A DNA stretch of 64,000 nucleotides from Malacoraja senta (taxonomy: Eukaryota). The stretch spans positions 11,038,001 through 11,102,000 of the forward strand of contig CM075990.1 in NCBI GenBank assembly GCA_038087875.1, read 5' to 3'. Position numbers and translations under genes: made by a program. The notes beneath the pieces were generated by a model. It ran no database searches and had not been told where the DNA came from. It saw nothing but the letters and a program-made list of their open reading frames with translations. Below, piece by piece: positions 22,643-47,673 of the stretch; the first letter of the stretch is position 1; every line of letters begins with the position of its first letter.

Positions 22643-25600
22643 TAAATTTTTAATAAAATTCTGAATATAATTGCAGAATCTAATTATCAAAATGTTATAA
22701 TCGGAGGAGATTTTAATTGTGTTTTAGATCCTTATTTAGATAAATCGATGCAAAAACAAAAAGGTCAGACGAAATCTAAAACCAGTGAACTCTTACACAC
22801 ATATATGGAAAACACAAATATAACAGATGTATGGAGGATTGCAAACCCGACGGGAAGGGATTACTCGTTTTATTCAATGGTGCATAAAACATATTCACGG
22901 ATAGGCTATTTTCTTGTGGATACAAAATTAATTCCGCAATCTCTGAATCCTAAATATCATATTAATGCGATCTCAGATCATTCTCCGTTAACTTTTGTTC
23001 TAAAACTAGAAGGAATGTCTATGAATAAACCGTTCTGGAGGTTTAACTCACAAATTTTAAAAGACCCTCAAGGGAGTATCTATCTAAAAAAACAGATGGA
23101 TCTATTTTTTGAGTTAAATGATACACCAGAGATATTCCCCACGTTATTATGGGAATCCTTCAAAGCATTTATAAGAGGAGTCATTATTTCATTTCAAGCT
23201 TATCAAAATAAAAAGAATAAGAATGAACAAAGACACTTAGAAGATCAAATAAAACAGTTAGATATAGATAATGCTAAAGACCCAACTATGGATAAACATA
23301 ATAAAATACTACTACTGAAATTTCAGTTAAATAAATTACTGTCAGAGAAAGTTATAACATTATTTCAAATCACAAAACAAGAACACTTCGAATTCGGGGA
23401 CAAACCCCACAAACTTCTAGCACGACAACTTAAAAAACGGGAAAAAGAGAATGCAATATTAAAGATTAAATCAGATAGAGGGGAAGTATTAACACTACCC
23501 AAGGATATTAATAAAAGATTTGCTCAATTTTACCAGAATCTATACACATCTAAAACGTCAATAGACAATAATAAAATCTCAGAATTTTTAGATAATTGTA
23601 ATCTACCACAATTAGAACGCAGGGAACAAGAGGAACTGGGAGCACAAATTACTTCTAAGGAGATAGAAGACACAATAAAAACACTAAAAAATGGAAAAAC
23701 ACCAGGACCAGACGGATTCAGTAATGAATTTTATAAATCTTTTTATGATATAGTTACTCCACGATTACAAAAAATGTATACATATGCTTATAAAGAGCAA
23801 AACCTACCTGAAACACTAGCGGAATCAACGATCATATTAATACTTAAAAAAGATAAAAATATAGAAGAACCAGGATCATATAGAGCTATTGCTTTATTAA
23901 ATACGGATCAGAAAATAATAGCAAAAACATTAGCCAATAGATTAAGCATGTTAGTAGACTAATACATGAGGATCAAACAGGATTTATACCTAAGAGACAC
24001 TCATTTAATAATTTGAGACGTTTGCTTAACATAATGCATTCACATAAATCTTATGACCAAGAGTTAGCTATCATCTCACTGGACGCAGAAAAAGCGTTTG
24101 ATCAAGTAGAATGGGACTATATGATCAAAGTATTGCAAAAATTCCAATTGGGAGAAAACTTTATTGCATGGATAAAACTACTATATAACAAACCTACGGC
24201 TAGAATACTAACTAATAATATTATCTTCAAAATTCGAATTATCTAGGGGCAACAGACAAGGATGTTCACTATCACCGCTGTTATTTGCTTTGGTAATCGA
24301 ACCCCTTGCTGAAAAAATAAGAACACACTCGAATATTCACGGTTATAACACAAAATATTCAAACAACAAACTATCCCTATATGCTGATGATGTACTACTG
24401 TACATCACAAAACCACAAATTAGTATACCAAATATATTAAACTTAATTGAGGACTTTGGATCCTTTTCAGGATATAGAATAAATTGGAATAAAAGTGAAA
24501 TTATGTCGATTAAACCAAAAGACTCAACACATCTCAGGAAATTCCCTTTTAAAATAGCTATGGAAAAATTCAAATATTTAGGAATTGAGATTACTAGAAA
24601 TTACCATGATATGTTTAAAGCTAATTATAATCCCCTACTTAAGAAATTAAATAATTTGATTAAATTTTGGAAAACACTTCCGATGTCCTTAATAGGTAGG
24701 ATAAATGCTATAAAAATGATTTTCTTACCACAAATCCTTTACCTATTTCAATCAATACCTATATATCTCCCAAAAAAGTTTTTCAAAAAACTGGACTCAG
24801 ACATTACAAATTTTATATGGGATTACAAATCCCACAGAATACAAAGAACACACCTTAACAAACGAAAAGAGTTGGGGGGTCTAGCGCTCCCTAACTTTAT
24901 GTATTATAACTGGGCAGTAAATATTAAAAATATGATTCACCTGCTGGACAATTCTGCCCAGCAGGTGGACTGGATTATAATGGAAAAAGGGGATTGCTCC
25001 CCGAATAATATAGGAGCGATTATTCTCTCTCCAATAAATTTGAATAATAAAAATTATAATAAAAATCCAATTATATATAGCACTATTAGAACATGGAAGC
25101 AAATAAAACAGAATCTAAAATTAAGAAACCTATCTCTCTTAATACCAATAGTCAATAACCCATCGTTTAAACCTTCAATCATAGATAAATCATTTATACA
25201 ATGGGAAAGAATGGGAATCAAAACGCTCGAAGATTTGTATGAATTAGAAAAATTATTATCATTCCAACAACTACAACTGAAATATAATTTGAAAAATAAT
25301 CAATATTTTAAATATCTACAAATCTGTGACTATTTGAAAACACACACAAAAGATTATTATAATATGCCTTCCGACTTACTAGATGAAGCAATGAAGACAA
25401 AGGCGGAATCAGTTAATTTAATATCATACTTATATAATATCATCTTAAACATAGAAATACCCACAACAGATGGAATCAGAAGAGATTGGGAACAAGATCT
25501 AGGTATAAAAATTTCAAAAGAGAGTTGGGATAATCATTTATTACAGGTGCATAAATGCTCGATCAATGTACGACATACGCTTATCCAATTTAAAACATTA

Positions 25601-26459
25601 CATAGATTATATTATTCAAAAACCAAACTAAATAAAATCTTTCCTAACGTCTCACCAATCTGTGATAAATGTATATGTCAAGAAGCTACCATAGCACATT
25701 CTTTTGTTTTTTGTACAAAAATCCAAAAATTCTGGTTTGAAATATTTGATACTTTTTCAAAATTAATCAAAATAAAACTGGTACCAAAACCAGAATGGAT
25801 TATTTTTGGAATATCGGAAGGTATTCCTGAATTAAACGTGTATCAGAAGAATTTACTCAATTATGGGCTAATAATGGGAAAAAAGCTTATACTTAAATTC
25901 TGGAAAAATGCACCCACACCAACAATAAAAATGTGGACATCAAATATGTTGGAAACATTACATCTGGAAGAGATGAGATTCCTCCTAGTAGGCAAAGTAG
26001 ACCAATTTCAAAAGACGTGGTCTACGTTTTTGGACCTATTACAAGCATGAGGTGCAATAGTAATTTAGAAAAACAAATAAATAAATAAAAGGTATCTGGA
26101 CCTGGTAATGGGAGGTAAAACAAAAACAGACTTGGTTGGTAGTTCCTTCTCTATGAAGTATGTTATAAGAGTTATAATAGAGCGATTGTTCCTTCTTTCT
26201 TTCTCTTTCTTTTCTAGGGTCTATTTTCTAACTTTACTTCCTTCTCTAACTTCTTTTCTAAGGGGCTTTCTTTTCCCAACACTCTTTTGCACTTCACAAC
26301 CTTTGCGCACTTTCTTCACTTTTCTTACTTCTTTCTTTTTCTTTCTTAAAGTTTAAAAAAGTGAAGCGGTACAAAAAATGTATTAATATATACGTGTTGT
26401 ACATTACTGTAATCTACCGTACTTCTATTAAAAAAATTATTTAAAAAAAAAAAAAAAAA
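22643..26459 (+). mobile_element. L1-clade LINE, 5'-truncated, ORF2 broken by two frameshifts
   Basis: Endonuclease motifs IIGGDFNC and SDHSP; RT motifs KTPGPDG, SLDAEKAFD, YADD; C-terminal CDKC..HSFVFC; poly(A) tail; 15-bp TSD aattaaatctgaaat at 22628..22642 and 26460..26474. Confidence 0.95.
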
Positions 26460-28690
26460 AATTAAATCTGAAATAAGCAAAGAACATATTTCAATAATGG
26501 TGATGAAGTACATACAAAAAATCAGCGTTTTGCCTATTGTTTTGTTTATATGCTATACTGCTCTTTTATTTAATAGTTCAGTCCATATGCAACACAGCAA
26601 TATGAATCTGAATTGTACTCTGAAAGGGATTTTACAGCTTGGAACACCTGAATAATTTGTTGTAAAATGCTGCTCCAGTGGTTTCTTAAGAACATAAGAA
26701 GGAGGAACAGAGGATCCTATTCAGCCCCTCGAGTCCGTTCACTGTTCCGTGGGATTACGACTGACCTGACATTACTCAAGTCCTTGATTCTGCCCTTTCC
26801 CCATAACTCTTGATTCTCTAGCTAATTAAAAATGTATTTACTGTGCATTTCAAGCCTGTATGAACTTCACAAGGATAGCCAATCTTTCTTTGTTGCAACT
26901 CAAATGGAAATGGTGAGGCATCCTTATGGTGACTGAGTTCAGGGCTTCTGCTTTTGAGACATTACATATGGTTTATACCACTGGTAAGCATTGCTACATA
27001 TTTACATGTGCACATGTTGAATTGGTATAAGGATGGGTGGTACTGTGATGTCTGAACTGGAAATCCCAGAAAAACCCCCATGCAGGTCACGTGGAGAACA
27101 TACGAATTCTGTACAGACAGCACCCGTAGTCAGGATTGACTCTGGCGCTGTAAGGCAGCAACTCTACTGCTGCGCTGCTGTGCTACAACATAGCTGAGAA
27201 TAAAATACTTTGCTGCTGGTCTTGAGTCACAAGGGCCAGATTGAGTAAAGTGGCAGGTACCTTCCGTTGAGAACATAATTGAATCATTTGGGTTTTGGAG
27301 TCATCGTCTGACAGCAGAGAAACAGGCCTTTTGACATACTTTATCAATGCCGACCATCAAGTGCCCACCTATTTATCAGTACTTAGTTCATACCTTGATG
27401 ATATAAATGCTCGTCTAGAAGGTCCTTAAATGTTACAAGAATCTCTGACTCTACCAGCCCCTCAGGCAGTGTCTTTTAGATTTTAATCAACCACTGCTCT
27501 GAGGCCATGATTTTCAAACACTGTTTGACCAAAGGCATCTTATCGACAAACATGCAGCTTTACGTTCAGCACTAACAGCATTTAACTTTTTAAATTATAA
27601 AAAAATCATATTGTTAGTTGAACAATATATTTAAGCGAAATTGTTTGATGCAGGAAATCCCCCTCAGATCCAGTGCCATGTAATACCCATTGTGGTGAAA
27701 GAATGCCTTGACCAGTCCCAGGGAGCCGTTGGAGTAATATTGTTAGTGAAAATAAATCTCTCACGGAATAAGAGTAAGGACAAACAAACCACACCCCGTT
27801 GGGCAATCTATCTAATTCAGAACACCACTTAAGTTTAAATTGCCTTTCTAATTACTTTCCTAAATTGTGTTCTGCATTCTAAATTGTAATTTCCTGTCTT
27901 ATGTGTTCTACTTGTGCATGACGCTTAACTTTACGAAGCGAGACTACAGATGCCAGGAGATCTGTGAAGTCTGATCTTTGCTGTTAGTGCTATGCAGCCT
28001 CAGCAGATCCAGATGCCCTGTCCACATCGCTCTGACCTTCAAGGCTTTTCTGATAAAACTGCCCACATCTTCATCTGAAAGAACAACGAATATTCCCTTT
28101 ATTGAACACTCATAGAAATAGGTGCAGGAGGAGGCCATTTGGCCCTTCGAGTCTGCATCGCCATTCATTGTGATCATGGCTGATCATCCACAATCAGTAA
28201 CCCGTGCCTGCCCTCTCCCCATATCCCTTGATTCCGCACTCCTTGCAAGAGGCCCCCCGCCCCTTCTAATTATGGCGATAAATGCAATTTTATGGCCATT
28301 AAAATACACTTGCACCCCTTCACCTTTTTTCCCCACCTATCTTCTGAAGCCATTTTTCTTCAGTTCCTGTTGTTCATGTGACCTGATTCACTTAGCTCTC
28401 ACTTTCCCTGACCTTTTGATTTGATGTTGATTCTCATGCTGATGCCTGCCTTGGATTCTTAACATCATAAAATGCTCAGTCTATTCCAAAACTATCAATG
28501 TCAAATACAACCACCTACTCATAAAATACAAAAACCTTGAGGTTGAGAGTCGTTCTCGGGAAGATTTTTTTTCACGCATAGGGTGATTGCAACCTGGAAT
28601 CCACTTCAGATTAAGTGTCACAACCTGAAATGTCAACCATCCACTTCCCTGTCCATAGGTGCCGCCTGATCCACTGAGTTCCTCCAGCAG

Positions 28691-31511
28691 AATATGATAT
28701 AGTTGGGATCACGGAGACATGGCTCCAGGGTGACCAAGGCTGGGAGCTGAACATCCAGGGATATTCAATATTCAGGAGGGATAGACAGAAAGGAAAAGGA
28801 GGCGGGCTAGCGTTGCTGGTTAGAGAGGAGATTAACGCAATAGAAAGGAAGGACATTAGCTTGGAGGATGTGGAATCGATATGGGTAGAGCTGCGAAACA
28901 CTATGGGGCAGAAAACGCTAGTGGGAGTTGTGTATAGGCCACCTAACAGTAGTAGTGGAGTTGGGGATGGCATCAAACGGGAAATTAGAAATGCGTGCAA
29001 CAAAGGTAAAACAATTATAATGGGTGACTTCAATCTACATATACATTGGGAGAATCAAATTGGCAGGGGTGCTGAGGAAGAGGATTTCTTGGAATGTATG
29101 CGGGATAGTTTTCTAAACCAACATGTAGAGGAACCAACGAGAGAGCAGGCTATTCTAGACTGGGTATTGAGTAATGAGGAAGGGTTAGTTAGCAGTCTTG
29201 TTGTGCGTGGCCCCTTGGGCAAGAGTGACCATAATATGGTTGAGTTCTTCATTAGGATGGAGAGTGACATTGTTAATTCAGAAACAAGGGTCCTGAACTT
29301 AAAGAAAGGTGACTTTGAGGGTATGAGATGTGAATTGGCCAAGATAGACTGGCAAATTATTCTTAAAGGGTTGACGGTGGATATGCAATGGAAGGCATTT
29401 AAAAACTGCATGGATGAACTACAACAATTGTTCATCCCAGTTTGGCAAAAGAATAAATCGGGGAAGGTAGTGCATCCGTGGATAACCAGGGAAATCAGGG
29501 ATAGTATCAAAACAAAAGATGAAGCGTACAAATTAGCCAGAAAAAGCAGCCTACCAGAGGACTGGGAGAAATTCAGAGTCCAGCAGAGGAGGACAAAAGG
29601 CTTAATTAGGAAAGGGAAAATAGATTATGAAAGAAAACTGGCAGGGAACATAAAAACTGACTGCAAAAGTTTTTATAGATATGTGAAGAGGAAAAGATTA
29701 GTTAAAACAAATGTAGGTCCCTTGCAGTCAGAAACAGGCGAATTGATCATGGGGAACAAGGACATGGCAGACCAATTGAATAACTACTTTGGTTCTGTCT
29801 TCACTAAGGAAGACATAAATAATCTGCCGGAAATAACAAGGGACCGGGGGTTAAATGAGATGGAGGAACTGAGTGAAATCCAGGTTAGCTGGGAAGTGGT
29901 GTTAGGTAAATTGAATGGATTAAAGGCCGATAAATCCCCAGGGCCAGATAAGTTGCATCCCAGAGTACTTAAGGAAGTAGCTGCAGAAATAGTGGATGCA
30001 TTAGTGATAATTTTTCAAAACTCTTTAGATTCTGGAGTACGTCCTGAGGACTGGAGGGTAGCTAATGTAACCCTACTTTTTAAAAAGGGAGGGAGAGAGA
30101 AAACGGGGAATTACAGACCAGTTAGTCTAACATCGGTGGTGGGGAAAATTCTGGAGTCAGTTATTAAAGATGGGACAGCAGCGCATTTGGAAAGTGGTGA
30201 ATTCATTGGACAAAGTCAGCATGGATTTATGAAAGGTAAATCATGTCTGACGAATCTTATAGAATTTTTCGAGGATGTAACTAGTAGAGTGGATAAGGGA
30301 GAACCAGTGGATGTGTTATATCTGGACTTTCAGAGGCTTTCGACAAGGTCCCACATAAGAGATTAGTATGCAAACTTAAAGCACACGGTATTGGGGGTTC
30401 AGTATTGATGTGGATAGAGAACTGGCTGGCAGACAGGAAGCAAAGAGTAGGAGTAAACGGGTCCTTTTCAGAATGGCAGGCAGTGATTAGTGGGGTACCG
30501 CAAGGCTCAGTGCTGGGACCCCAGCTATTTACAATATATGTTAATGATCTGGATGAGGGAATTGAATGCAACATCTCCAAGTTTGCAGATGACACAAAGC
30601 TGGCGGGCAGTGTTAGCTGTGAGGAGGATGCTAGGAGGCTGCAAGGTGACTTGGATAGGTTGGGTGAGTGGGCAAATGCATGGCAGATGCAGTATAATGT
30701 GGATAAATGTGAGGTTATCCACTTTGGTGGCAAAAACAGGAAAGTAGACTATTATCTGAATGGTGGCCGATTAGGAAAAGGGGAGATGCAACGAGACCTG
30801 GGTGTCATGGTACACCAATCATTGAAAGTAGGCATGCAGGTGCAGCAGGCAGTGAAGAAAGCAAATGGTATGTTAGCATTCATAGCAAAAGGATTTGAGT
30901 ATAAGAGCAGGGAGGTTCTACTGCAGTTGTACAGGGTCTTGGTGAGACCACACCTGGAATATTGCGTACAGTTTTGGTCTCCTAATCTGAGGAAAGACAT
31001 TCTTGCCATAGAGGGAGTACAGAGAAGGTTCACCAGACTGATTCCTGGGATGGCAGGACTTTCATATGAAGAAAGACTGGATAGACTCGGCTTGTACACG
31101 CTAGAATTTAGAAGATTGAGGGGGGATCTTATAGAAACTTACAAAGTTCTTAAGGGGTTGGACAGGCTGGATGCAGGAAGATTATTCCCGATGTTGGGGA
31201 AGTCCAGAACTAGGGGTCACAGTTTAAGGATAAGAGGGAAGTCTTTTAGGACCGAGATGAGAAAATCATTTTTTACACAGAGAGTGGTGAATCTGTGGAA
31301 TTCTCTGCCACAGAAGGTTGTTGAGGCCAGTTCATTGGCTATATTTAGGAGTAAGATGTGGCCCTTGTGGCTAAAGGGATCAGGTGGTATGGAGAGAAGG
31401 CAGGGATGGGTTACTGAGTTGGATGATCAGCCATGATCATATCGAATGGCGGTGCAGGCTCGAAGGGCCGAATGGCCTACTCCTGCACCTATTTTCTATG
31501 TTTCTATGTTT
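28691..31511 (+). mobile_element. CR1-clade LINE, 5'-truncated, with most of ORF2 (endonuclease + RT)
   Basis: ORFs 28813..30366 and 30405..31436 (GDFN, SDH, KSPGPD, YRPVSLTS, GVPQGSVLGP, FADDTK) joined by a frameshift near 30335; ends in ttctatgt repeats. Confidence 0.95.
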
Positions 31512-33759: not shown

Positions 33760-33998
33760 TACGGATATGCCCCCAAAGGTTCATCAGTTGTACTATACAG
33801 CGACAAGAAATATCGACACTACCAGTTCTTTGTCGCCCCAGACTGGCAGGGAGGTATCTATGCATCACCCACGATCGCAGGGTCGAGACCAGGAGGGATC
33901 ATTGCTGCTTGCTGGGCAACGATGATGTACAAGGGCGAAGATGGTTACGTTAAGGCTACAAAGAAGATAATTGAGACGGCACGACACATTATAGCTCA
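33760..33998 (+). CDS. SGPL1: SGPL1 coding exon (about exon 12)
   Basis: cccag|TAC GGA TAT...GCT CA|gtatgt; 239 bp; [56 protein letters not shown]... Confidence 0.97.
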
Positions 33999-34645
33999 GT
34001 ATGTATATATCTGAAGATCTCTATGTTTGGATAATGATAAGTAGAACTCAATATCTAATCTTTTTTGGGTGGTCATTCAAGTTTTGCAGGTTTTGAGATG
34101 GCCGGCTTCAATTCTGACCTTGGGTAATATCTGTATGGAATGAAGCCATAGACTGGCTTCAATTCTGACCTTGGGTAATAACTGTATGGAATTTGCATGT
34201 TTTTCCTTTGACTGTATGAATCGCCTCTGAATGCTCCAGTTTTTTTCCACGCCCCCAAATGCGTGGGTTTCTAAGTTATTTGGCTGCTGTAAATTGCCAA
34301 AAGTGTGTAGGTGAATGATAGAATCTGGGGTGGGTTGATGAGAATGTAGGGAGAATAAAAAGTGGAATTGATGTATGATTGCTCGCAAGTTAGAGGAGCA
34401 AAATTAAGCCATTCAGCCCATCATGGCTACTGCCACTCAATCATAGCTGATCAATCTTTCCTTCTCAACCCTCTCATTGATTGCTAATTTGGTGGGTTGA
34501 AGGGCCTGTTTCCCTGCTGTATCCCTGTATTTTATCTCTTATTTATTATATATTCTATCAGTATCTCTGACTAGTTCAGATACAGATGTAGCAGGAGATG
34601 CTGTTAAGGGTCATGCCATTTATTGTATATTTACCCATTACTTTC

Positions 34646-34806
34646 TGTAGTGTATTTGGGTGCTTGGAACTGACTCAAAAGAACTCTCAGATACAGGAGT
34701 AAACAGACAAGCTTCTTTATTCTAGGACGCCACCTTGAGTTTCCCCCAGCGCATGCGTCCCCTTGCACAAGACATAACATATGCTAATTATATTACATAC
34801 ATCACA
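34646..34806 (-). repeat. 3' LTR
   Basis: tgtagtgtatt...catacatcaca; 3 mismatches to the other LTR; AATAAA on the minus strand at 34716..34721. Confidence 0.95.
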
Positions 34807-34821
34807 CTGCTCCCCCTTTAA
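34807..34821 (-). promoter_or_regulatory. Polypurine tract of the LTR element
   Basis: Minus strand ttaaagggggagcag directly abuts the 3' LTR; a second copy lies 55 bp further inside. Confidence 0.85.
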
Positions 34822-35068
34822 CTTGGAGGCAGGTAACACCATTTACATTATATACATTACACTGCTCCCCCTTTAGCTTGGAGGCGAATAACACCATTTC
34901 TATTACATTAAATATAATTGATTAACACACTGTTGCAAAATTATATTATTACAGTCATCTTACATTACATCCTCATAACTGTAATAATCGTATCTAAACT
35001 TAGCACTTATAATGGTTCATTCCACTCATCTTCCTTAAACCAAATACATTACCCCTTGCTTTTTGTGT

Positions 35069-35578
35069 TATCCTTTTCCGTTCCCTTCTGTGTAAATTGC
35101 ACACTCTTTCTAATCACTCTAGCTCTACCTGTATCTCTGCCTCTTCCCTTTTTAAATATCCTAATCTAATTCGCAGATTTCTTCCTGTTCTTGATATTCT
35201 GCTAAAGTTAACATTTCCTCTGTTTCTGTTCCTTATTTGTAGGTGGGATCTGACACATGACTGCAGGTTTTTGTTTTTCAGCAGCTTCCTCTGTCGCTCA
35301 ATTTCCTGGCGCTGCGTACTTATCTGCTCTTGTTGTATAATAACATTCTGCAATGCATAACCATTTGTCCATTGCTCAGTGAAGGAAGCTCCATGCTGGA
35401 CTATAGTGAAGTGTCCTAATCGCAATCGATCCTGCATACTTTTATCTCGACCGACAAGCCTCTCTTCTTTAGACTTTTCTATTAACAGCTTTTTGCTCAT
35501 CGTCACACATTTATTTAACCGTTCTTTGTATCGCTTAAGCCTTTTCTGTTGTTCATCTATTTGTCGTCTTAAATCACC
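35069..35578 (-). pseudogene. TLK2: Captured intronless fragment of Tousled-like kinase (TLK2-like) coiled-coil region; kinase domain absent; decayed
   Basis: [73 protein letters not shown]; then, across frameshifts, [58 protein letters not shown] and GYA favour TLK2 over TLK1. Confidence 0.88.
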
Positions 35579-36595
35579 TTTCTGGTTATTCATCAAGAAG
35601 TAGGATCTATATTGTCTTTGCAATACAACAGTTGCTTTGATTTGCGCTCTGTATATTTTTCTTACTACATAAGCACGGTAGTGAGACTGCACTACAACTG
35701 CTGTATAAATCAGTTTGAGGAAGTCTTTCCTATATCGTTTAAGCCTTTTGTATCGTTTAAGCCATTTCTGTTGTGCATCTATTGTATTACCGTAGCCCTC
35801 TTTTGCTTAACCCACTGCCTAACCACCATACTCTTGTAGGCAGCCTGAATGGTAATGGTTGCGTACCTCATTGACTGATATTGCACAAACTGGGAATGCC
35901 CTATTTTGCATGCTTTGTACCATCTCTGGATCGAAATGACTGCTTGTCGAATAGCTCTGTACCGTATCCTTAATCGGTAACCACGGTATGCAGCTTGCAG
36001 AGTGACTACAGCCGCCTTTTGCATCAAGAAATGCTTTCTTGTAATGCACATCCTTATGAATGACTTAATATGGCGTGCTGCCTTGATTTTCTCAACCAAT
36101 TCTCTGGCTTTAATCCTGCGGTAGAAGGCCTGAATACACACCACTGCTTTTCTCAAACTATTATACTGTCTCACTTGGACATCTCTTATCTGGCATGCTC
36201 TGCATCGTTGCTGTACCGCAATGGCAGACCAGCATAGTTTCTTGAAATACTGGCGCTGTTCATGCATCTGATAATAAGTCTGTATGACCTTGGCAGACTT
36301 GTGCATGCACCGCAATTGCTTTTGAACAACCATTCCTCGGTAGGCAGCCTGAAGCAGTACAACGCTTCTGCGTACCTTCATGTACGTTTTGCGATCACTT
36401 TCCATTTGAAGGTGTGCCCTATAATGGGTTTGTACTATTATAGCTGCTAATTTCATTGCCTTGTATTGACGGTATACTCTGTGCCTTCTAAATGCTGCTT
36501 GTATTTCCGTTGCTGCCTTCTGTTTGTTCCGGATCTCTCTCCGAACCTTCATACCACTGAATGCAGCTTGAATAGCTAGGGTTGCCCTTTGGATG
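35579..36595 (-). pseudogene. ASPM: Captured ASPM IQ-repeat (calmodulin-binding) fragment
   Basis: About 13 tandem IQ-like motifs (IQAAFRR, VQTHYRA, LQAAYRG, IQAFYRR, IQRWYKA, VQSHYRA...) with ASPM-like spacing; IQRWYKACKIGHSQFVQYQSMRYATITIQ resembles the distal IQ region of vertebrate ASPM. Confidence 0.82.
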
Positions 36596-36618
36596 GCAAT
36601 TTCCCTTTGCCTTTGACT

Positions 36619-36744
36619 TCTGTCACTTTGCATTTGCCCTTTGTCCCTTTGCACTTGACCTGTGTCCTTTTGCACTTGACCTGTGTCCTTTTGCACTTGA
36701 CCTTGGTCCCTTTGCACTTGACCTGTGTCCCTTTGCACTTGACC
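36619..36744 (-). repeat. 21-bp coding tandem repeat, 6 copies (GQVQ[KR]D[TQK])
   Basis: Plus-strand unit tgtgtccttttgcacttgacc; in frame with ORF 35779..36906. Confidence 0.9.
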
Positions 36745-37207
36745 TTTCTTTTCTTTTTGCTTGGTGCCGTTCCACTTTGTTTCCAAACACAACCTCTTCT
36801 TTTTAACTTGTTTTTTTTTCTCTTGACAGCCCTTCTTCTTTGTTCTTTTCTGTTCTTTTATCCTCGTTGCCTCGTTATCCTTGTGTGTTCTGGTGTAGCA
36901 ATTCACCTAAAACTTAGCTGTACAAAGATTATTCAGCTTGAGGAATTCGACAAAAAAAACTCAGTCTAAAATGTGTAACATTCCGAAGGACGACATCTTG
37001 CCACGTAGACACAACATAGAGATAGCCTTACAAAACTCGCCGACTTGTACAGCTGGTGTTTTAAACTACAGTCCCCGTCATAGAGGGATCTGCAGGCCTC
37101 TCATGTCCAGCTCGCAAACAACTGCGACACAACTCCGTATCTACTGTTTAAACTGTTAAACAATCCTGCTTGTTGCAAAACAGTCCTGCGGGTGAGTATC
37201 GCGAACT

Positions 37208-37225
37208 ATCCCATCCTCGTCACCA
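37208..37225 (-). promoter_or_regulatory. Primer-binding site complementary to the tRNA-Ser(GCU) 3' end
   Basis: Minus strand TGGTGACGAGGATGGGAT, 2 bp from the 5' LTR; plus strand ATCCCATCCTCGTCACCA vs recalled tRNA-Ser-GCT end ATCCCATCCTCGTCGCCA (17/18). Confidence 0.85.
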
Positions 37226-37227
37226 AT

Positions 37228-37388
37228 TGTAGTGTATTTGGGTGCTTGGAACTGACTCTAAAGAACTCTCAGATACAGGAGTAAACAGACAAGCTTCTTT
37301 ATTCTAGGACGCCACCTTGAGTCTCGCCCAGCGCATGCGTCCCCTTGCACAAGACATAACATATGCTAATTATATTACATACATCACA
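37228..37388 (-). repeat. 5' LTR
   Basis: 161 bp, 158/161 identical to 34646..34806, adjacent to the PBS. Confidence 0.95.
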
Positions 37389-37526
37389 CTTTCTACCTCC
37401 CAAAGTGAACACCTTGCACTCGGATTAAGCTTCATCTGCCATTTCACTGCTGATCTATCCTGTTGTTACTTTTACAGCCTTCCTCACTATTCACAACCCC
37501 AGCAATCTTGGTGTCAACTGCAAACG

Positions 37527-37628
37527 TACCAACCCGATTACATTTAGTTCCAAGTCATTTGCATGTATCACAAACTGTTGTTTGTGATGCATGCAAATGA
37601 CTTGGAACTAAATGTAATCGGGTTGGTA
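37527..37628. repeat. Near-perfect inverted repeat (49-bp arms, 4-nt loop)
   Basis: 37527..37575 is the reverse complement of 37580..37628 with one mismatch. Confidence 0.95.
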
Positions 37629-37837
37629 AGTCCCAGCACAGATGCCTGTGGAACTCCACTGGTCACAGACCTCCAGTCTGAATATTGTTCTTCAACCATA
37701 ACCCTCTGTTCTTAATCCATGTTCTTAATCCATGCAACTAAATTACTAATAATCGCATGCATTTTAATCTGGATCAGTTTATCCGACGGGACTTTATCAT
37801 TTAGTAATTAATTTTGTAAACTACTGTTTTAACTTTT

Positions 37838-37901
37838 TGTCCGAGAAACCCCCAACATTGTCCGAGAAACCCCCAACATTTGTCCGAGAAACCCCCAACA
37901 T
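37838..37901. repeat. 21-22-bp tandem repeat, 3 copies
   Basis: tgtccgagaaacccccaacat(t) x3. Confidence 0.9.
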
Positions 37902-40900
37902 GATGACTTAATTTTGGAGATTACAAGAACTGAGATTGTGAATTTTTGCATGAGTTTATTAAATCTGTATTACTTCTCCCTCCATCTGCCTTGCATTTTA
38001 ATGAGGAAGTAGTGAATAATGATGTATGATTCGTGTCTGAGCAAGGGAAACCAAGAGCCCTGTTAGGACAAGGAGGGCAGCTGACAGGCATTTAGACAAA
38101 TGTATGGAAATGGAATAAAATACGTGTTAAAGGGAGAAAATGCTCCATCCCCTATGACAGTCAAAGCGAGGATAGAATTCTTACATGGAGCGTGTTATCT
38201 TCTAAAGATCTGGTAGTGATCTGATCATAAACCCTGCCTCTTACTGTGAGCAAGCACACGTTAGTTTGAGTAGGTGATGCCTGACGTGCTTATGCTTGTC
38301 AACACAATTGGTTTTGGGTGTTGATGAGAAGCAAGGAGGGTGTTGCAATGAATCAGCACTGTTTAGTTTAGTTTTCCGGAAACAGGCCATTCAGCCCACC
38401 AAGTCCGTGCTGACCAGCATACACTAACACTATCCTACATACTGGGGACAATTTTACAATTTTTACTGAAGCCAATTAACCTACAAACCTGTAGGTCTTT
38501 GAATGTGGGAGGAAACCGGAGCACCTGGAGAAAATCCACACAGACACGGGGGGAACGTACCCACTCAATAGACAATGGGTGCAGGAGTAGGCCATTCGGC
38601 CCTTCGAGCCAGCACCGCCATTCAATGTGATCATGGCTGATCATCCCCAATCAGTACCCCGTTCCTGCCTTCTCCCCATATCCTCTGACTCCGCTATCTT
38701 TAAGAGCCCTATCTAGCTCTCTCTTGAAAGTATCCAGAAAACCGGCCTCCACTGCCCTCTGAGGCAGAGAATTCCACACTCACAACTCTCTGTGTGAAAA
38801 AGTGCTTCCTAGTCTCCGTTCTAAATGGCTTACCCTTTACTCTTAAACTGTGGCCCCTGCTCTGTACAGACAGCACAGGAAAGGGTGACGTTTCGGGTCG
38901 AGACCCTTTTTCAATATAAATACCGGAGTTAATCCATTCTATCCTCGCAATCACTTCTGACATTGGGAATGTAGCCAGCACCCACTTGAGCTTGCGACAT
39001 GATTACCCCTGCACAGTTTCTCTTCTGCACAAGTTCTGCACTTCTTCTAAATAGACATCTTTGAGCTTAGTGGCGAGAAGGGAACTGCACAGAGTGCATT
39101 TTATTTAATCATAGTCCTCGAGTGAGATGGATTGAAAAAGCCGACTGTCTAGAGGATAATAAATCCAGTGGCACCCTGTGTACTAAGCTTCAGAAACACT
39201 TTCTGTGACACAATGCAGAAAGGAAAGGAGGCCTGATTCATTCTCAACCTGAGCAGCAGACTGTAAGACATGTTGTTTATCCATGGAACTGGCAGTAATA
39301 ATGTACAAAGGTTTTCCCTTTTTGCTGTAAGTAACGTGCTTTTAAAACTTCAGTGGTCTCACACCGAGTTCTGAGCAGCAAACTCTGTGCCATCCAATTT
39401 AACCGGATGCTTTCAAGATACTTAGATTTTTGTTCCATTGGATATAAATGTGTGCTGCATTATTTGTTCTGTCTGAGACGGTCTCTCGGTGCACTGGCTT
39501 TGGGAATGTTAACAAAGGAGATCACAGCTTGAAATCTGGCACTTTATTATGAAGCCGATGATTCCATTGAATCAGTGGTGTAAGTAATTTTTATTAAAAG
39601 CAATTGCAAGTAAAGGGCAGCAGAGTGGCGCAGTTGCTGCCTCAGCACCAGAGTTCTGAGTTCCATCCTGACCTTGGGTGCTGTCTGTGTGGAGTTTGCA
39701 TATTGGTATAAACCAGCATGTGCAGTTCCTTTCTACACTCTAATGTCGGTATCGTATTTGCTTCCAATCGTGGCAACGCATTCCAGCTCTATGTGTAAAA
39801 AAAACAAAAAACGGAGACTCCTTTGAACTTAAAACCTGTGGCCTTTCTGAAACTCGCATTTGTTAACTCGCCTGTCCTCTGGCTCCATCTTGTGCTTAGT
39901 TTCTGTCTTTGAAGCAAATTGAGATGTATTACAAAACCGACAGATTTGGCCTTAAAGAAAAACCTCAAATATAGTAGTCTGAAGAGTAATGTAAGGGGCA
40001 GGGAACTGCTTGTTATCTTTTAACCTTTTCAGGACAAGGGTGAGATTGCAAAAAATCAAATATGTTTGATTCAAGTCTGGGATCCTGAGTGAAAGCCTAA
40101 AAGATCGAGGGGGTAAAAGGCCTAAAGAGGGTGTCAAAGAGAAAGGGAAGATACGAGACATGGGAATCATCACCAATTTTTTTTTTTCTCCACCTGACCC
40201 CCCCCCCCCCCCCCCCACCCAGATGCTGATCACCGAGTTCCTCATGCAGGTTGACAATAAGTGCTGGGCTAACTCAGTAGGTTAGGTAGCATCTCTGGAG
40301 AACATGGATAGGCAATGCTTCAGGTTGGAACCCTTCTTCAGACTGACCAGCATCTGTCCACCAACATCTGCAGTTCCTTGTTATTACATCGAAGTTTGTT
40401 TGGAGAGAAAGTGCGTGGAAATAGGACTTTCAGCCGGTCGAGTCCACGCCAACTATATTTCTGTGTTATCCCACTTTTGCATCCTACACACGAGGGGCAA
40501 TTTACAGAAGTCAATTAACCTACAACTGACAAAGCTGCACATCTTTGAAATGTGCGAGGAAACCAGAGCACCTGAAGAAAACCAACACGGTCACAGGGTG
40601 AAAGTACAAATTCCACATGCATGGCACCTGTAGTTGGAATTGAACCCGGGTCTCTGGTTTGTGATGCTCCTGCAGGTTGTTTCTTGCTTTAGGTCCAAAT
40701 TTTAATATAACAGCTGTAACTCGTGAATAGTACACTCACCTCTCACTTGGAGGGTGAGCGTCCAAGACCCACTCAAAGATTTGATCCCACAACAACCCAG
40801 GGGAACGATGCCTTTATTCAGGAGCTGCGAGTCATGTGGAGGATCATGCTGAGACTATTGCAGATGAAAGTAAATAACCCTTTTGTCTGCTGGCTAATGA

Positions 40901-41319
40901 TTCCTCAATCAGCACGATGGAAAGATCAGATTATCTGATCATTCTTGCACTATGGACCCCTCTCCCAGTTCAAAAGCCTTTGCCAGTGACTAATACATTT
41001 CAGCTGAATCCCATCCTCTGCTACGTTGAATTCCCATATTTTTTCACCCTGTTCTCTCTTTTTAATACAAATCTTTAGTCCCCAAAGCCATGGAAGATCA
41101 TCTGTGCTTTTACCTCACCATCTCTTGGACACCCCCCCCCCCCCCCTACCCACCCTCTCCCCTTTCATTTTAATGTCTGTATCTCCTTTGATTCTCTGAC
41201 TTCTAATATGGTGCTCAAGGGATTAAATACAGCAATAATCTGCAAAATTCAACAATAATCTGTTCTCCACCCCCATTGCTCCCTCTCATTGCCCTGTATT
41301 ATTATTTCCCTTTTTTTAG

Positions 41320-41466
41320 GTTAAAGAAAATAAAGGAAATCTTCATCTTTGGAAAGCCTGAAGTATCTGTTGTAGCCATTGGCTCGGACACGTTTGATAT
41401 ATTCCGATTATCAAATGCAATGACATCCAAAGGGTGGAACCTCAACACCTTGCAGTTCCCTTCCAG
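41320..41466 (+). CDS. SGPL1: SGPL1 coding exon (about exon 13)
   Basis: ttttag|G TTA AAG...TCC AG|gtatgt; 147 bp; [48 protein letters not shown]. Confidence 0.96.
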
Positions 41467-41729
41467 GTATGTGACTCTCCTCCTGTGCACTCATCCTTCC
41501 TGCTGTGACTCTCTTTCTACATTCTCCATCAGTGTGATGCTCTCTCAGACTCTTATTGATTGGAGAAAGTGTTGCTGCCTAAACCTACACAGTACATTCA
41601 CCCACTGAGTTTCTCCAGCCTTTTTGTCTACCTTCAATTTCTCCAGCATCTGCAGATCTTTCTTAAACAGCACATTTATAAAATCTTTTTTATTTTTATT
41701 TATAAAAGCCTTTGAATTAATTGATTGTA

Positions 41730-46062: not shown

Positions 46063-47673
46063 CATTGCCCTCCATATTGTTTGGGATAAAGACCCATCAT
46101 TTATTCATTTGCCTCTGTTCTCCACAATTTGAGATTTGTAATAGAAAAAAATCACATGGTTAAAGTGCACATTGTCAGATTTTAATAAAGACAATTTTTA
46201 TACATTTTTGTTTCACCATGTTGAAATTACAGCAGTGTTTATACATAGTTCCCCCCCCCCCCCATTTCAGGGCACCATAATGTTTGGGACACAGCAGTGT
46301 AATGTAAATGAAAGTAATCATGTTTAGTGTTTTATTGCATATCCTTTGCATGCAATGACTGCTTGAAGTCTGCGATTGATGGACATCACCAGTTGCTAGG
46401 TGTCTTTAGCTTATGTGTGTTTTGGGGGCTAGTCCCCTTCAGTTTTCCCTTTAGCATATAAAAAGCGTGCTCAGTTGGGTTCAGATCAGGTGGTTGACCT
46501 GGCCACTCAAGAATTTACCATTTTTTTAGCTTTGAAAAACTCCTTTGTTGCTTTCCCAGTATGTTTGGGATCAATTGTCTTGCTGTAGAATGAACCGCCG
46601 GCCAATGAGTTTTGTGGCATTGTTTGAACTTGAGCAGAAAGGATATGTCTATACACTTCAGAATTCATTATGCTACTACCATCAGTAGTTGTATCATCAA
46701 TGAAGATAAGTGAGCCAGTACCTTCAGCAGCCATACATGCCCAGGTCATAACCCCCCCCCCACCACTGTGTCTCACAGATGAGGTGGTATGCTTTGGATC
46801 TTGGGCAGTTCCTTCTCTCCTCCATACTTTGTTCTTGCTATCACTCTGATACAAGTTAATGTCTCATCTGTCCACAAGACCTTTTTCCAGAACTGTGGTT
46901 GCTCTTTCAAGTACTTCTTGGCAAACAGTAACCTGGCCATCCTATTTTTGCAGCTAACCAGTGGTTTGCATCTTGCAGTGCAGCCTCTGTATTTCTGTTC
47001 ATGAAGTCTTCGGCGGACAGTGGCCATTGACAAATCCACTCCTGAAGAGTGTTTCTGATCTGTCGGGCAGGTGTTTGACCATTTTTCTTTATTATAGAGA
47101 ATTATTCTGTCATCAGCTGTAGAGGTCTTCCTTGGCCTGCCAGTCCCTTTGCGATTAGTAAGCTCACCAGTGCTCTCTTTCTTAATGATATTCCAAACAG
47201 TTGATTTTGGTAAGCCTAAGGTTTGGCTGATGTCTCTAACAGTTTTATTATTGTTTCTCAGTCTCGTAATGGCTTCTTTGACTTTCATTGGCACAACTTT
47301 GGTCCTCGTGTTGATAAACAGCAAAACGTTTCCAAAGGTGATGGAAAGACTAGGTGCTGAGAGCTCTCATATACCTGCATTAAGGAGGCATTTAAACATC
47401 CCTGAGCAATTAGAAACACCAGTGAAGCCGTGAGTCCCAAACATTATGGTGCCCTGAAATGGTGGGGGGGGGGGGGGGGGGGACCTATGTATAAACACAG
47501 CTGTAATTTCTACATGGTGAAACCAAAATGTATAAAAATGGTCTTTATTAAAACATGACAATGTGCACTTTAACCACATGTGATTTTGTTTCTATTACAA
47601 ATCTCAAATTGTGGAGTACAGAGGCAAATAAATAAATGATGGGTCTTTGTTCAAAACATTATGGAGGGCACTG
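46063..47673 (-). mobile_element. Near full-length Tc1-family transposon with ~225-bp IR/DR-type TIRs; transposase frameshifted
   Basis: TA then cattgccctccata... at left, ...tatggagggcactg at right; inner repeat cataatgtttgggac; minus strand gives HTH (GLPKSTVWNII, GRPRKT), WTDET, DPKHT, WPGQPPDLNPTEH. Confidence 0.93.

What the first reader, a model, noticed from the sequence alone, without database searches (positions are those of the whole stretch)
35733..35790. One missing base splits a ~600-codon chimeric ORF, at a TLK2 micro-fragment embedded in the ASPM part
Seen on the minus strand: caatagatgcacaacagaaatggcttaaacgatacaaa is a second copy of the TLK segment caaatagatgaacaacagaaaaggcttaagcgatacaaa (~35525..35563), lacking one A and followed by a tandem duplication of ggcttaaacgata. 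Restoring that A removes the TAG at 35779 and joins ORF 35779..36906 to ORF 35114..35692 (..[37 protein letters not shown]..). Inference: the order ASPM>TLK2>ASPM>TLK2 records repeated template switches, and frame-preserving junctions hint that the fusion ORF was once translated or selected.
Basis: partly seen in the sequence, partly recalled or inferred. Interest (0 to 1): 0.72.

Follow-up and report, generated by a model that had tools for sequence, protein, structure and literature searches.

The report
Skate retrotransposon carrying ASPM-TLK2 chimera
A small jumping gene in a skate genome picked up pieces of two cell-division genes, copied a scrap of one into the other, and spread widely; this copy is broken in several places, so the flagged single-base break is one scar among several, not a lone flaw in a working gene.

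Summary
The 37-bp piece is real: 34/37 identical to the element's own TLK2 segment and absent from host ASPM. It lies in a 2.74-kb non-autonomous LTR element (161-bp LTRs with 3 differences, 5-bp target duplication, Mag/Gypsy-like) in a skate. The cargo is ASPM IQ repeats plus the TLK2 coiled coil; 20 of 23 listed runs hold part of the stretch.

The piece shares two derived changes with the element's TLK2, so it was copied within the element family, not recaptured from host mRNA. The break is best read as the scar of a 49-base net loss: contigs in two runs hold a longer, in-frame junction, and no single-base form is listed at 8% or more in four runs. The TLK2 part has three more frame breaks and a premature stop; at least one break is shared by about 98-99% of depth in three runs.

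An earlier open frame is suggested (a gag-like fusion in Leucoraja, in-frame older junctions, fewer stops than neutral, p about 0.005-0.01 post hoc), but residues drifted about 15% in both parts. This is a new family of a known kind (LTR-mediated chimeric retrocopy).

The parts
37389..37393 (-). 5-bp target-site duplication, 5' copy
   Evidence: same 5 bases on both flanks
37228..37388 (-). 5' LTR, 161 bp, TG...CA
   Evidence: 3 differences from the 3' LTR
37208..37225 (-). primer-binding-site-like 18-mer; match to the 3' end of tRNA-Ser(GCT) is recalled, not tested
   Evidence: sequence
36746..37207 (-). 5' internal region without detectable gag homology in this copy
   Evidence: no alignment to the gag-like residues 1-85 of P0001
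36602..36745 (-). 21-bp (7-codon) tandem repeat, 6.9 copies, in frame with the ASPM part; also in P0001; its GQVQ word is absent from host ASPM and TLK2
35788..36609 (-). captured ASPM IQ-repeat segment a (Amblyraja P0290 residues 2806-3079, 214/274 identical, no stop or gap)
35784..35787 (-). frame break between ASPM a and the TLK2 piece; host ASPM residues 3080-3089 are missing here
35747..35783 (-). TLK2 micro-fragment (host residues 200-211), second copy of 35525-35561
35733..35767 (-). 18-bp tandem duplication at the exit of the micro-fragment
35582..35734 (-). captured ASPM segment b (P0290 residues 3090-3141, 41/52 with the next codon)
35069..35577 (-). captured TLK2 coiled-coil segment (Leucoraja P0024 residues 195-373), with frame breaks near 35277, 35213 (with a 9-codon gap) and 35174, and a TGA at 35116-35114
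34788..34908 (-). 55-bp tandem duplication holding the polypurine tract (about 34819-34807) and a copy of the LTR start
34646..34806 (-). 3' LTR, 161 bp
34641..34645 (-). 5-bp target-site duplication, 3' copy

Best explanation
The flagged spot is a recombination scar inside a non-autonomous Mag/Gypsy-like LTR element of skates. Step 1 (structure shown, mechanism inferred): an LTR element replaced its pol region with a piece of ASPM and a piece of TLK2, joined in frame at a 4-base shared word. Step 2 (inferred, well supported): after the TLK2 cargo had mutated, reverse transcriptase left the template at the start of ASPM b, copied about 16 codons of the element's own TLK2 segment some 200 bases away, and returned, which left a TLK2 scrap flanked by a repeated 4-codon ASPM word; an 18-bp slip was added. 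This older junction was in frame. Step 3 (copies shown, order inferred): a net loss of 49 bases at the 5' end of the scrap produced the window's one-base frame offset, and further small deletions broke the TLK2 tail. The family spread using enzymes of an autonomous partner (inferred). The window copy is most likely a dead passenger, antisense in an SGPL1 intron. An early phase with an open gag-ASPM-TLK2 frame is likely, but I read it as a need for an open frame on the element RNA rather than for host-like protein function.
For: LTRs, TSD, PBS- and PPT-like sites. Cargo nests within skate ASPM (100/99) and is sister to the Leucoraja model P0001 (100/100). Host TLK2 E208 is E in 102 of 102 hits where the motif was found (of 120 examined), but K in both element copies; host M206 (codon ATG; M in 90, A in 12 of the 102) has a second-position G in both. 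Contigs in X1 and X3 (depth about 31 each) bridge the junction with 52 letters where the window has 3, which makes 102 bases (34 codons) instead of 53 between the flanking ASPM codons. Loose ends at 35787 (3 contigs in X3, 9 in X6) read, by eye, as 8-9 of the 10 missing host ASPM residues, and the one at 35783 (X1) as ASPM RKD running into TLK2 LRRQ. The base that host TLK2 has near 35279 is present in only 0.6%, 1.1% and 1.7% of depth in X1, X3 and X6. Element-specific residue changes are about equal in fast ASPM (35/241) and in TLK2 (15/99, where the skates differ at 0/99); the stem branch to the two element copies is 0.17 against 0.05-0.07 for the skate host tips.
Against: The share of copies with the window's short junction is unknown: no listed piece bridges it in the window form (3351 pieces not shown), and the depths of the loose-end contigs are not given, so the in-frame form may be common. 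The 52 letters were not printed whole; 49 of them are inferred from two separate loose ends. Some loose ends at 35787 may be the host ASPM gene. No stop in 424 codons with 56 element-specific changes is unlikely under neutrality (product of three P values 0.005-0.011; boundary chosen after seeing the data), which argues for more constraint than a purely passive history. No host DNA was available, so dN/dS against the parents was not computed. X17 shows the host-like base at 19% of depth, but that run also holds host TLK2 and ASPM contigs.
Confidence: 0.7

Rival explanations
1. Recombination between two sibling elements: a derivative that had lost ASPM b by an in-frame deletion (ASPM a joined straight to TLK2) recombined with a full copy, giving ASPM>TLK2>ASPM>TLK2 in one crossover.
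For:: one X1 contig (depth 24) has micro-fragment letters running straight on into the main TLK2 continuation (joint 35517/35747); single loose ends at 35572 in X1, X3 and X6 put the ASPM word YRKD directly before main TLK2; an X3 joint skips 227 bases (35565/35793, depth 54). The shared derived changes fit this too.
Against: Those contigs may be long-form micro-fragments or main-segment variants laid on the wrong repeat; each rests on one contig, with 21-27 letters on the short side for the joints. It needs an extra intermediate element.
Confidence: 0.2
2. One reading: an intact fusion of about 600 codons, built by repeated switches between host mRNAs, recently broken by a single base and under protein-level selection.
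For: The frames do add up to 597 codons; the older junctions are in frame while chance microhomologies show no frame bias (0.33-0.35); stops are fewer than neutral; P0001 has a gag-like start in frame with the cargo.
Against: No one-base insertion is listed at 35779-35784 at 8% or more in 4 of 4 runs (absence of a row is not proof); ten host codons are missing at the junction; three further frame breaks and a stop in TLK2; about 15% residue drift in a segment invariant among skates; window-private differences are 7 synonymous and 10 nonsynonymous, not significantly different from neutral (p 0.09-0.14; only 38 of 207 differences could be scored).
Confidence: 0.07
3. The break is an assembly or sequencing error in the window.
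For: The window's own reads were not available (best run holds 0.49 of the words), and the offset lies at a short A run.
Against: A single-base error cannot explain the ten missing host codons; other copies differ here by 49 bases, not one.
Confidence: 0.03

Closest known systems
LTR-mediated chimeric retrocopies (Tan et al. 2016, PMC5131818; abstract, 12 passages and the Discussion read; supplements not read)
   Same: Partial host-gene pieces replace the internal ORFs between two LTRs; short shared words at switch points; two parental genes in one element; further rounds of copying as a non-autonomous element; often in frame.
   Different: The passages read describe few insertion sites per retrocopy; here summed depth in three skate runs is in the thousands to tens of thousands against about 25-50 for single contigs (not a copy number). 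Here one switch recopies the element's own already mutated cargo.
Maize Bs1 (as summarised in PMC5131818; original papers not read)
   Same: LTR element carrying pieces of several host genes, with shared switch points among copies.
   Different: Bs1 has three parental genes, 1-5 copies and is reported to give a hybrid protein; this family has two genes, appears far more abundant, and the window copy is broken.
Mag lineage of Ty3/Gypsy elements (PMC3286476; Table 1 and Mag passages read)
   Same: Short LTRs (about 120-300 bp there, 161 here), mostly 5-bp TSD, Ser/Leu primer, tandem repeats in some members; DUF7041-like gag start in P0001.
   Different: No RT or integrase here, so the lineage cannot be placed by phylogeny; the comparison is with mosquito elements.
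Acutely transforming retroviruses with gag-onc fusions, and HERV-K/FAM8A1 capture (gag-onc recalled; FAM8A1 from a passage in PMC5131818)
   Same: Helper-dependent LTR element with host cell-cycle gene pieces in frame behind a gag-like start (in P0001).
   Different: No env and no kinase domain, no sign of infectivity; the cargo is an IQ array and a coiled coil, and it has decayed.

Membership tests
LTR-mediated chimeric retrocopy | Host-gene pieces between two intact LTRs with TSD | tested here: met
LTR-mediated chimeric retrocopy | Internal retrotransposon ORFs replaced rather than interrupted | tested here: met
   Element is 2743 bp; Pfam finds only IQ in four frames scanned; no gag match; a gag-like start survives in P0001
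LTR-mediated chimeric retrocopy | Microsimilarity at switch points | tested here: met
   4-base word at the main ASPM/TLK2 joint (host letters from X17 loose ends, read by eye); 4 of 5 bases at the entry and 2 bases at the exit of the micro-fragment. Words this short were not tested against chance.
LTR-mediated chimeric retrocopy | Cargo is spliced (introns lost) | not testable with these tools
   179 TLK2 codons are colinear without an intron, but no host gene DNA was available; that this region spans several exons is recalled
LTR-mediated chimeric retrocopy | Secondary amplification with shared junctions | tested here: met
   20 of 23 listed runs, 11 studies, 8 organism labels hold part of the stretch (2 of the 20 are small shares); 934-1144 contigs laid in each of three runs; P0001 is a second copy
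LTR-mediated chimeric retrocopy | Transcription from the LTR | tested here: inconclusive
   The only RNA-guessed run laid (X17) is marked 'probably DNA' and mixes in host contigs
Mag lineage (Ty3/Gypsy) | RT/integrase phylogeny | not testable with these tools
   No pol in the element and no genome held
Mag lineage (Ty3/Gypsy) | Short LTRs and 5-bp TSD | tested here: met
   against Table 1 of PMC3286476
Mag lineage (Ty3/Gypsy) | tRNA-Ser or tRNA-Leu primer site | not tested
   PBS-like 18-mer at 37225-37208; the tRNA-Ser match is from recall
Functional chimeric retrogene | Uninterrupted ORF | tested here: not met
   four frame breaks and one premature stop in this copy
Functional chimeric retrogene | Purifying selection on residues | tested here: inconclusive
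   About 15% residue drift in both cargos argues against; the stop deficit argues for an open frame; 7:10 syn:nonsyn not significant; no true dN/dS

The most novel reading that the evidence does not exclude
The family began as, and in some skates may still include, a translated Gag-ASPM(IQ)-TLK2(coiled coil) fusion that the element was selected to keep, for example to bind calmodulin or to pair with host TLK2 and so favour its own copying in dividing germ cells: a retrotransposon analogue of gag-onc capture, with two cell-division genes and amplification across a vertebrate order.
Probability: 0.15. Interest if true: 0.75.

Novelty: new member of a known kind. Interest (0 to 1): 0.38.

Why it matters
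The mechanism is known, but this family keeps a readable series of intermediate junctions across several skate genomes, so the order of template switches, in-frame rearrangements and decay can be timed on a tree of copies. That makes it a test case for whether captured cargo is first held open by selection and whether that selection acts on the RNA or on the protein. It also flags a probable annotation trap: the Leucoraja 'ASPM homolog' XP_055489032.1 looks like a copy of this element. If an intact, translated fusion exists, it would be a vertebrate retrotransposon using host cell-cycle domains.

Tried and rejected
No genome is held for the window, so copies could not be counted or aligned whole. 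A 24-base junction pattern found 0 matches in metagenome contigs and 0 in viral contigs. No RNA holder listed; this is not evidence on expression. Folding of 35500-35800 gave z = -0.57: no special structure that would bring the donor and acceptor sites together. Search for a gag remnant in 36740-37230: best score 42 (2 of 300 and 1 of 40 shuffles reached it), but it aligns the basic linker 87-113 of P0001 and not the gag-like part, so rejected. Frame bias of chance microhomologies: none. The tree could not tell whether the capture came before or after the Amblyraja/Rhinoraja split (74/73; p-AU 0.17 and 0.16). Literature: 0 papers with 3 of ASPM, TLK2, retrotransposon, skate; 0 with 4 of skate, Leucoraja, LTR, retrocopies, ASPM; two searches listed nothing on this family (listings only; the library lacks most subscription papers). 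Earlier findings by place and by sequence: none. Rejected: native ASPM origin of the piece; fresh capture from host TLK2 mRNA; a retrovirus proper (no env or pol in 2.74 kb). A jump to an upstream IQ repeat as the source of the three junction letters was considered, but three bases are too few to test.

Full report
Setting. The flagged bases lie in a 2743-bp element on the minus strand, 34646-37388. It has two 161-bp LTRs that begin TG and end CA and differ at 3 positions (1.9%; 95% interval 0.4-5.3%), and a 5-bp target-site duplication. A primer-site-like 18-mer follows the 5' LTR and a purine tract precedes the 3' LTR. Short LTRs with a 5-bp duplication fit the Mag lineage in Table 1 of PMC3286476 (table and Mag passages read); the tRNA-Ser match is recalled. 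The element landed in a LINE fragment (clear RT similarity on the 5' flank; continuation on the 3' flank seen by eye only), antisense and about 640 bases after an SGPL1 exon. No genome is held.

Cargo. 36609-35788 matches Amblyraja ASPM residues 2806-3079 (214/274, one block) and 35734-35582 matches residues 3090-3141 (41/52). 35577-35069 matches skate TLK2 residues 195-373; the best of 1135 hits are cartilaginous-fish TLK2. In a tree of 15 rows the cargo falls with the two skate ASPMs (100/99) and is sister (100/100) to P0001, a 290-aa Leucoraja model named 'ASPM homolog'. P0001 has the same 7-residue repeat and ASPM start (125/139 identical), preceded by about 90 residues whose nearest Atlas clusters are unnamed (0.96), DUF7041 (0.95) and retrotransposon gag (0.90) (Pfam DUF7041 E = 0.12, below its cut-off). 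P0001 is a predicted model and may be spliced. The window copy has no such start.

The observation. The 37 bases at 35747-35783 match 35525-35561 at 34 positions; the best chance match in the window is 23. An 18-bp tandem duplication follows. The two stop-free frames are offset by one base and total 597 codons. Host ASPM has ten other residues at this place and no fetched long protein (0 of 195) has the TLK2 word, so the piece is not native ASPM.

Where the piece came from. In 102 of 120 TLK hits examined the motif could be located; all 102 have E at the position where both element copies have K, and the host Met codon two residues earlier carries the same second-position change in both copies. 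Two shared derived changes in 12 codons mean that the donor was the element's own TLK2 segment, after it had begun to drift. The four-part order therefore records one two-gene capture plus a later rearrangement within the family, not four visits to host mRNA.

What the break is. Contigs of four runs were laid on 34950-36595 at 85% likeness, with differences listed from 8%. No one-base insertion is listed at 35779-35784; the tool warns that a missing row is not proof. One contig each in X1 and X3 (depth about 31) bridges the site with 52 letters where the window has 3; the X1 piece is 295 bases and covers the micro-fragment, so it is not the host gene. The window has 53 bases between the flanking ASPM codons; that copy has 102, which is 34 codons. 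Loose ends at 35787 (3 contigs in X3, 9 in X6) translate by eye to 8-9 of the 10 missing host residues, and a loose end at 35783 in X1 reads from the ASPM word RKD into TLK2 LRRQ. The longer junction is thus continuous ASPM up to about residue 3093, TLK2 196-211, the slip, and ASPM again from 3090: an in-frame insert with a repeated four-codon word, as a double template switch would leave. What share of copies has each form is not known, because 3351 pieces and 215 loose ends were not shown. Single contigs that join ASPM or micro-type letters straight to main TLK2 (joints 35517/35747 and 35565/35793; loose ends at 35572) keep the sibling-recombination rival open.

Is the frame otherwise intact? 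No. A frameshift-aware alignment to host TLK2, read with X at the breaks, shows breaks near 35277, 35213 (with nine codons missing) and 35174, and a TGA at 35116-35114. The three breaks cancel, which is why one 230-codon frame appears; about 44 TLK2 codons in it are read in the wrong frame. The host-like base near 35279 is in 26/4300, 44/3983 and 148/8557 of depth in X1, X3 and X6 (26/134 in X17, which also holds host contigs), so this break predates most of the amplification; low-depth contigs in X3 and X6 also keep extra letters near 35217.

Was it ever selected? For: the main joint, the longer junction, the 18-bp slip, the 21-bp repeat and the gag-like fusion of P0001 are all in frame, while chance 4-6-base words shared by the two cargos show no frame bias (0.33-0.35). 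In 424 codons with 56 element-specific residue changes there is no stop; neutral simulation gives products of 0.011 and 0.005, with the caveat that the boundary was set at the first TLK2 break, after which one stop and three breaks occur in about 80 codons. Against: counted over all nine length-changing events, five in frame is not far from chance, and the case rests on the inferred order; residue drift is 35/241 in ASPM a, 6/44 in ASPM b and 15/99 in a TLK2 stretch where the skates do not differ; of 38 scorable differences (40 shown of 207; 2 in the broken tail dropped) the 17 private to the window are 7 synonymous and 10 not (p 0.09-0.14). The pattern fits an early need for an open frame without host-like protein constraint, then loss of that need. 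True dN/dS could not be computed.

Spread. 20 of 23 listed runs, 11 studies and 8 organism labels hold part of the stretch, none more than 0.49 of its words. Summed depth is in the thousands to tens of thousands in three runs, against about 25-50 for many single contigs, which suggests hundreds of copies, although the tool states that this is no copy number. Expression is untested.

Comparison. PMC5131818 (abstract, 12 passages and Discussion read; supplements not read, and they may hold closer cases) describes LTR-mediated retrocopies with microsimilarity at switch points, multi-gene chimeras and secondary retroposition, and summarises maize Bs1. This element meets the structural tests of that kind; splicing, transcription and Mag membership by RT could not be shown; as a functional retrogene it fails the open-frame test. 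Searches found no paper on this family. Two unchecked notes of this scan report similar amplified elements with RBM25 or EDC4 cargo in other genomes, one of them ray-like; they are leads only.

Verdict. Observation partly confirmed; interpretation partly supported; new member of a known kind; interest 0.38. The bold reading, a selected Gag-ASPM-TLK2 fusion protein, is not excluded (probability about 0.15).

Noticed in passing
P0001 (XP_055489032.1, Leucoraja erinacea): Annotated as an ASPM homolog, but looks like another copy of this element with a gag-like start in frame; its best single match in host ASPM is an upstream super-repeat (P0290 2583-2682).
   Followed up: partly
window 33766-33999 (+) and about 41300-41480 (+): Exons of sphingosine-1-phosphate lyase (first one matched to PDB at E 3e-37; second judged by eye); the element lies antisense between them.
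   Followed up: partly
window 37524-37631: 52-bp arms, 96% complementary, 4 bases apart, inside the LINE fragment upstream of the element: a fold-back duplication.
   Followed up: no
window 34788-34908: The polypurine tract and the first bases of the 3' LTR are duplicated in tandem (55-bp unit, 87% alike), which gives two possible plus-strand priming sites.
   Followed up: no
window 22646-26050 (+): A+T-rich LINE with endonuclease, RT and zf-RVT matches, nearly whole but split over three frames.
   Followed up: no
window 28678-31436 (+): LINE (CR1-like by recall) with endonuclease and RT split over two long frames.
   Followed up: no
window 46507-47433 and 247-549: Tc1/mariner-type transposase remnants (Pfam match for 46776-47366; the copy at 247-549 judged by similar translation).
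   Followed up: no
window 37836-37901: Three tandem copies of a 21-22-bp unit, 95% alike.
   Followed up: no
window 34489-34513 and 38378-38402: 25-bp inverted pair, probably ends of two SINE copies in opposite orientation around the element.
   Followed up: no
P0002-P0004 (Etheostoma spectabile): Three short 'ASPM homolog' models of 254-605 aa in one fish; probably a fragmented annotation, not checked for LTR context.
   Followed up: no
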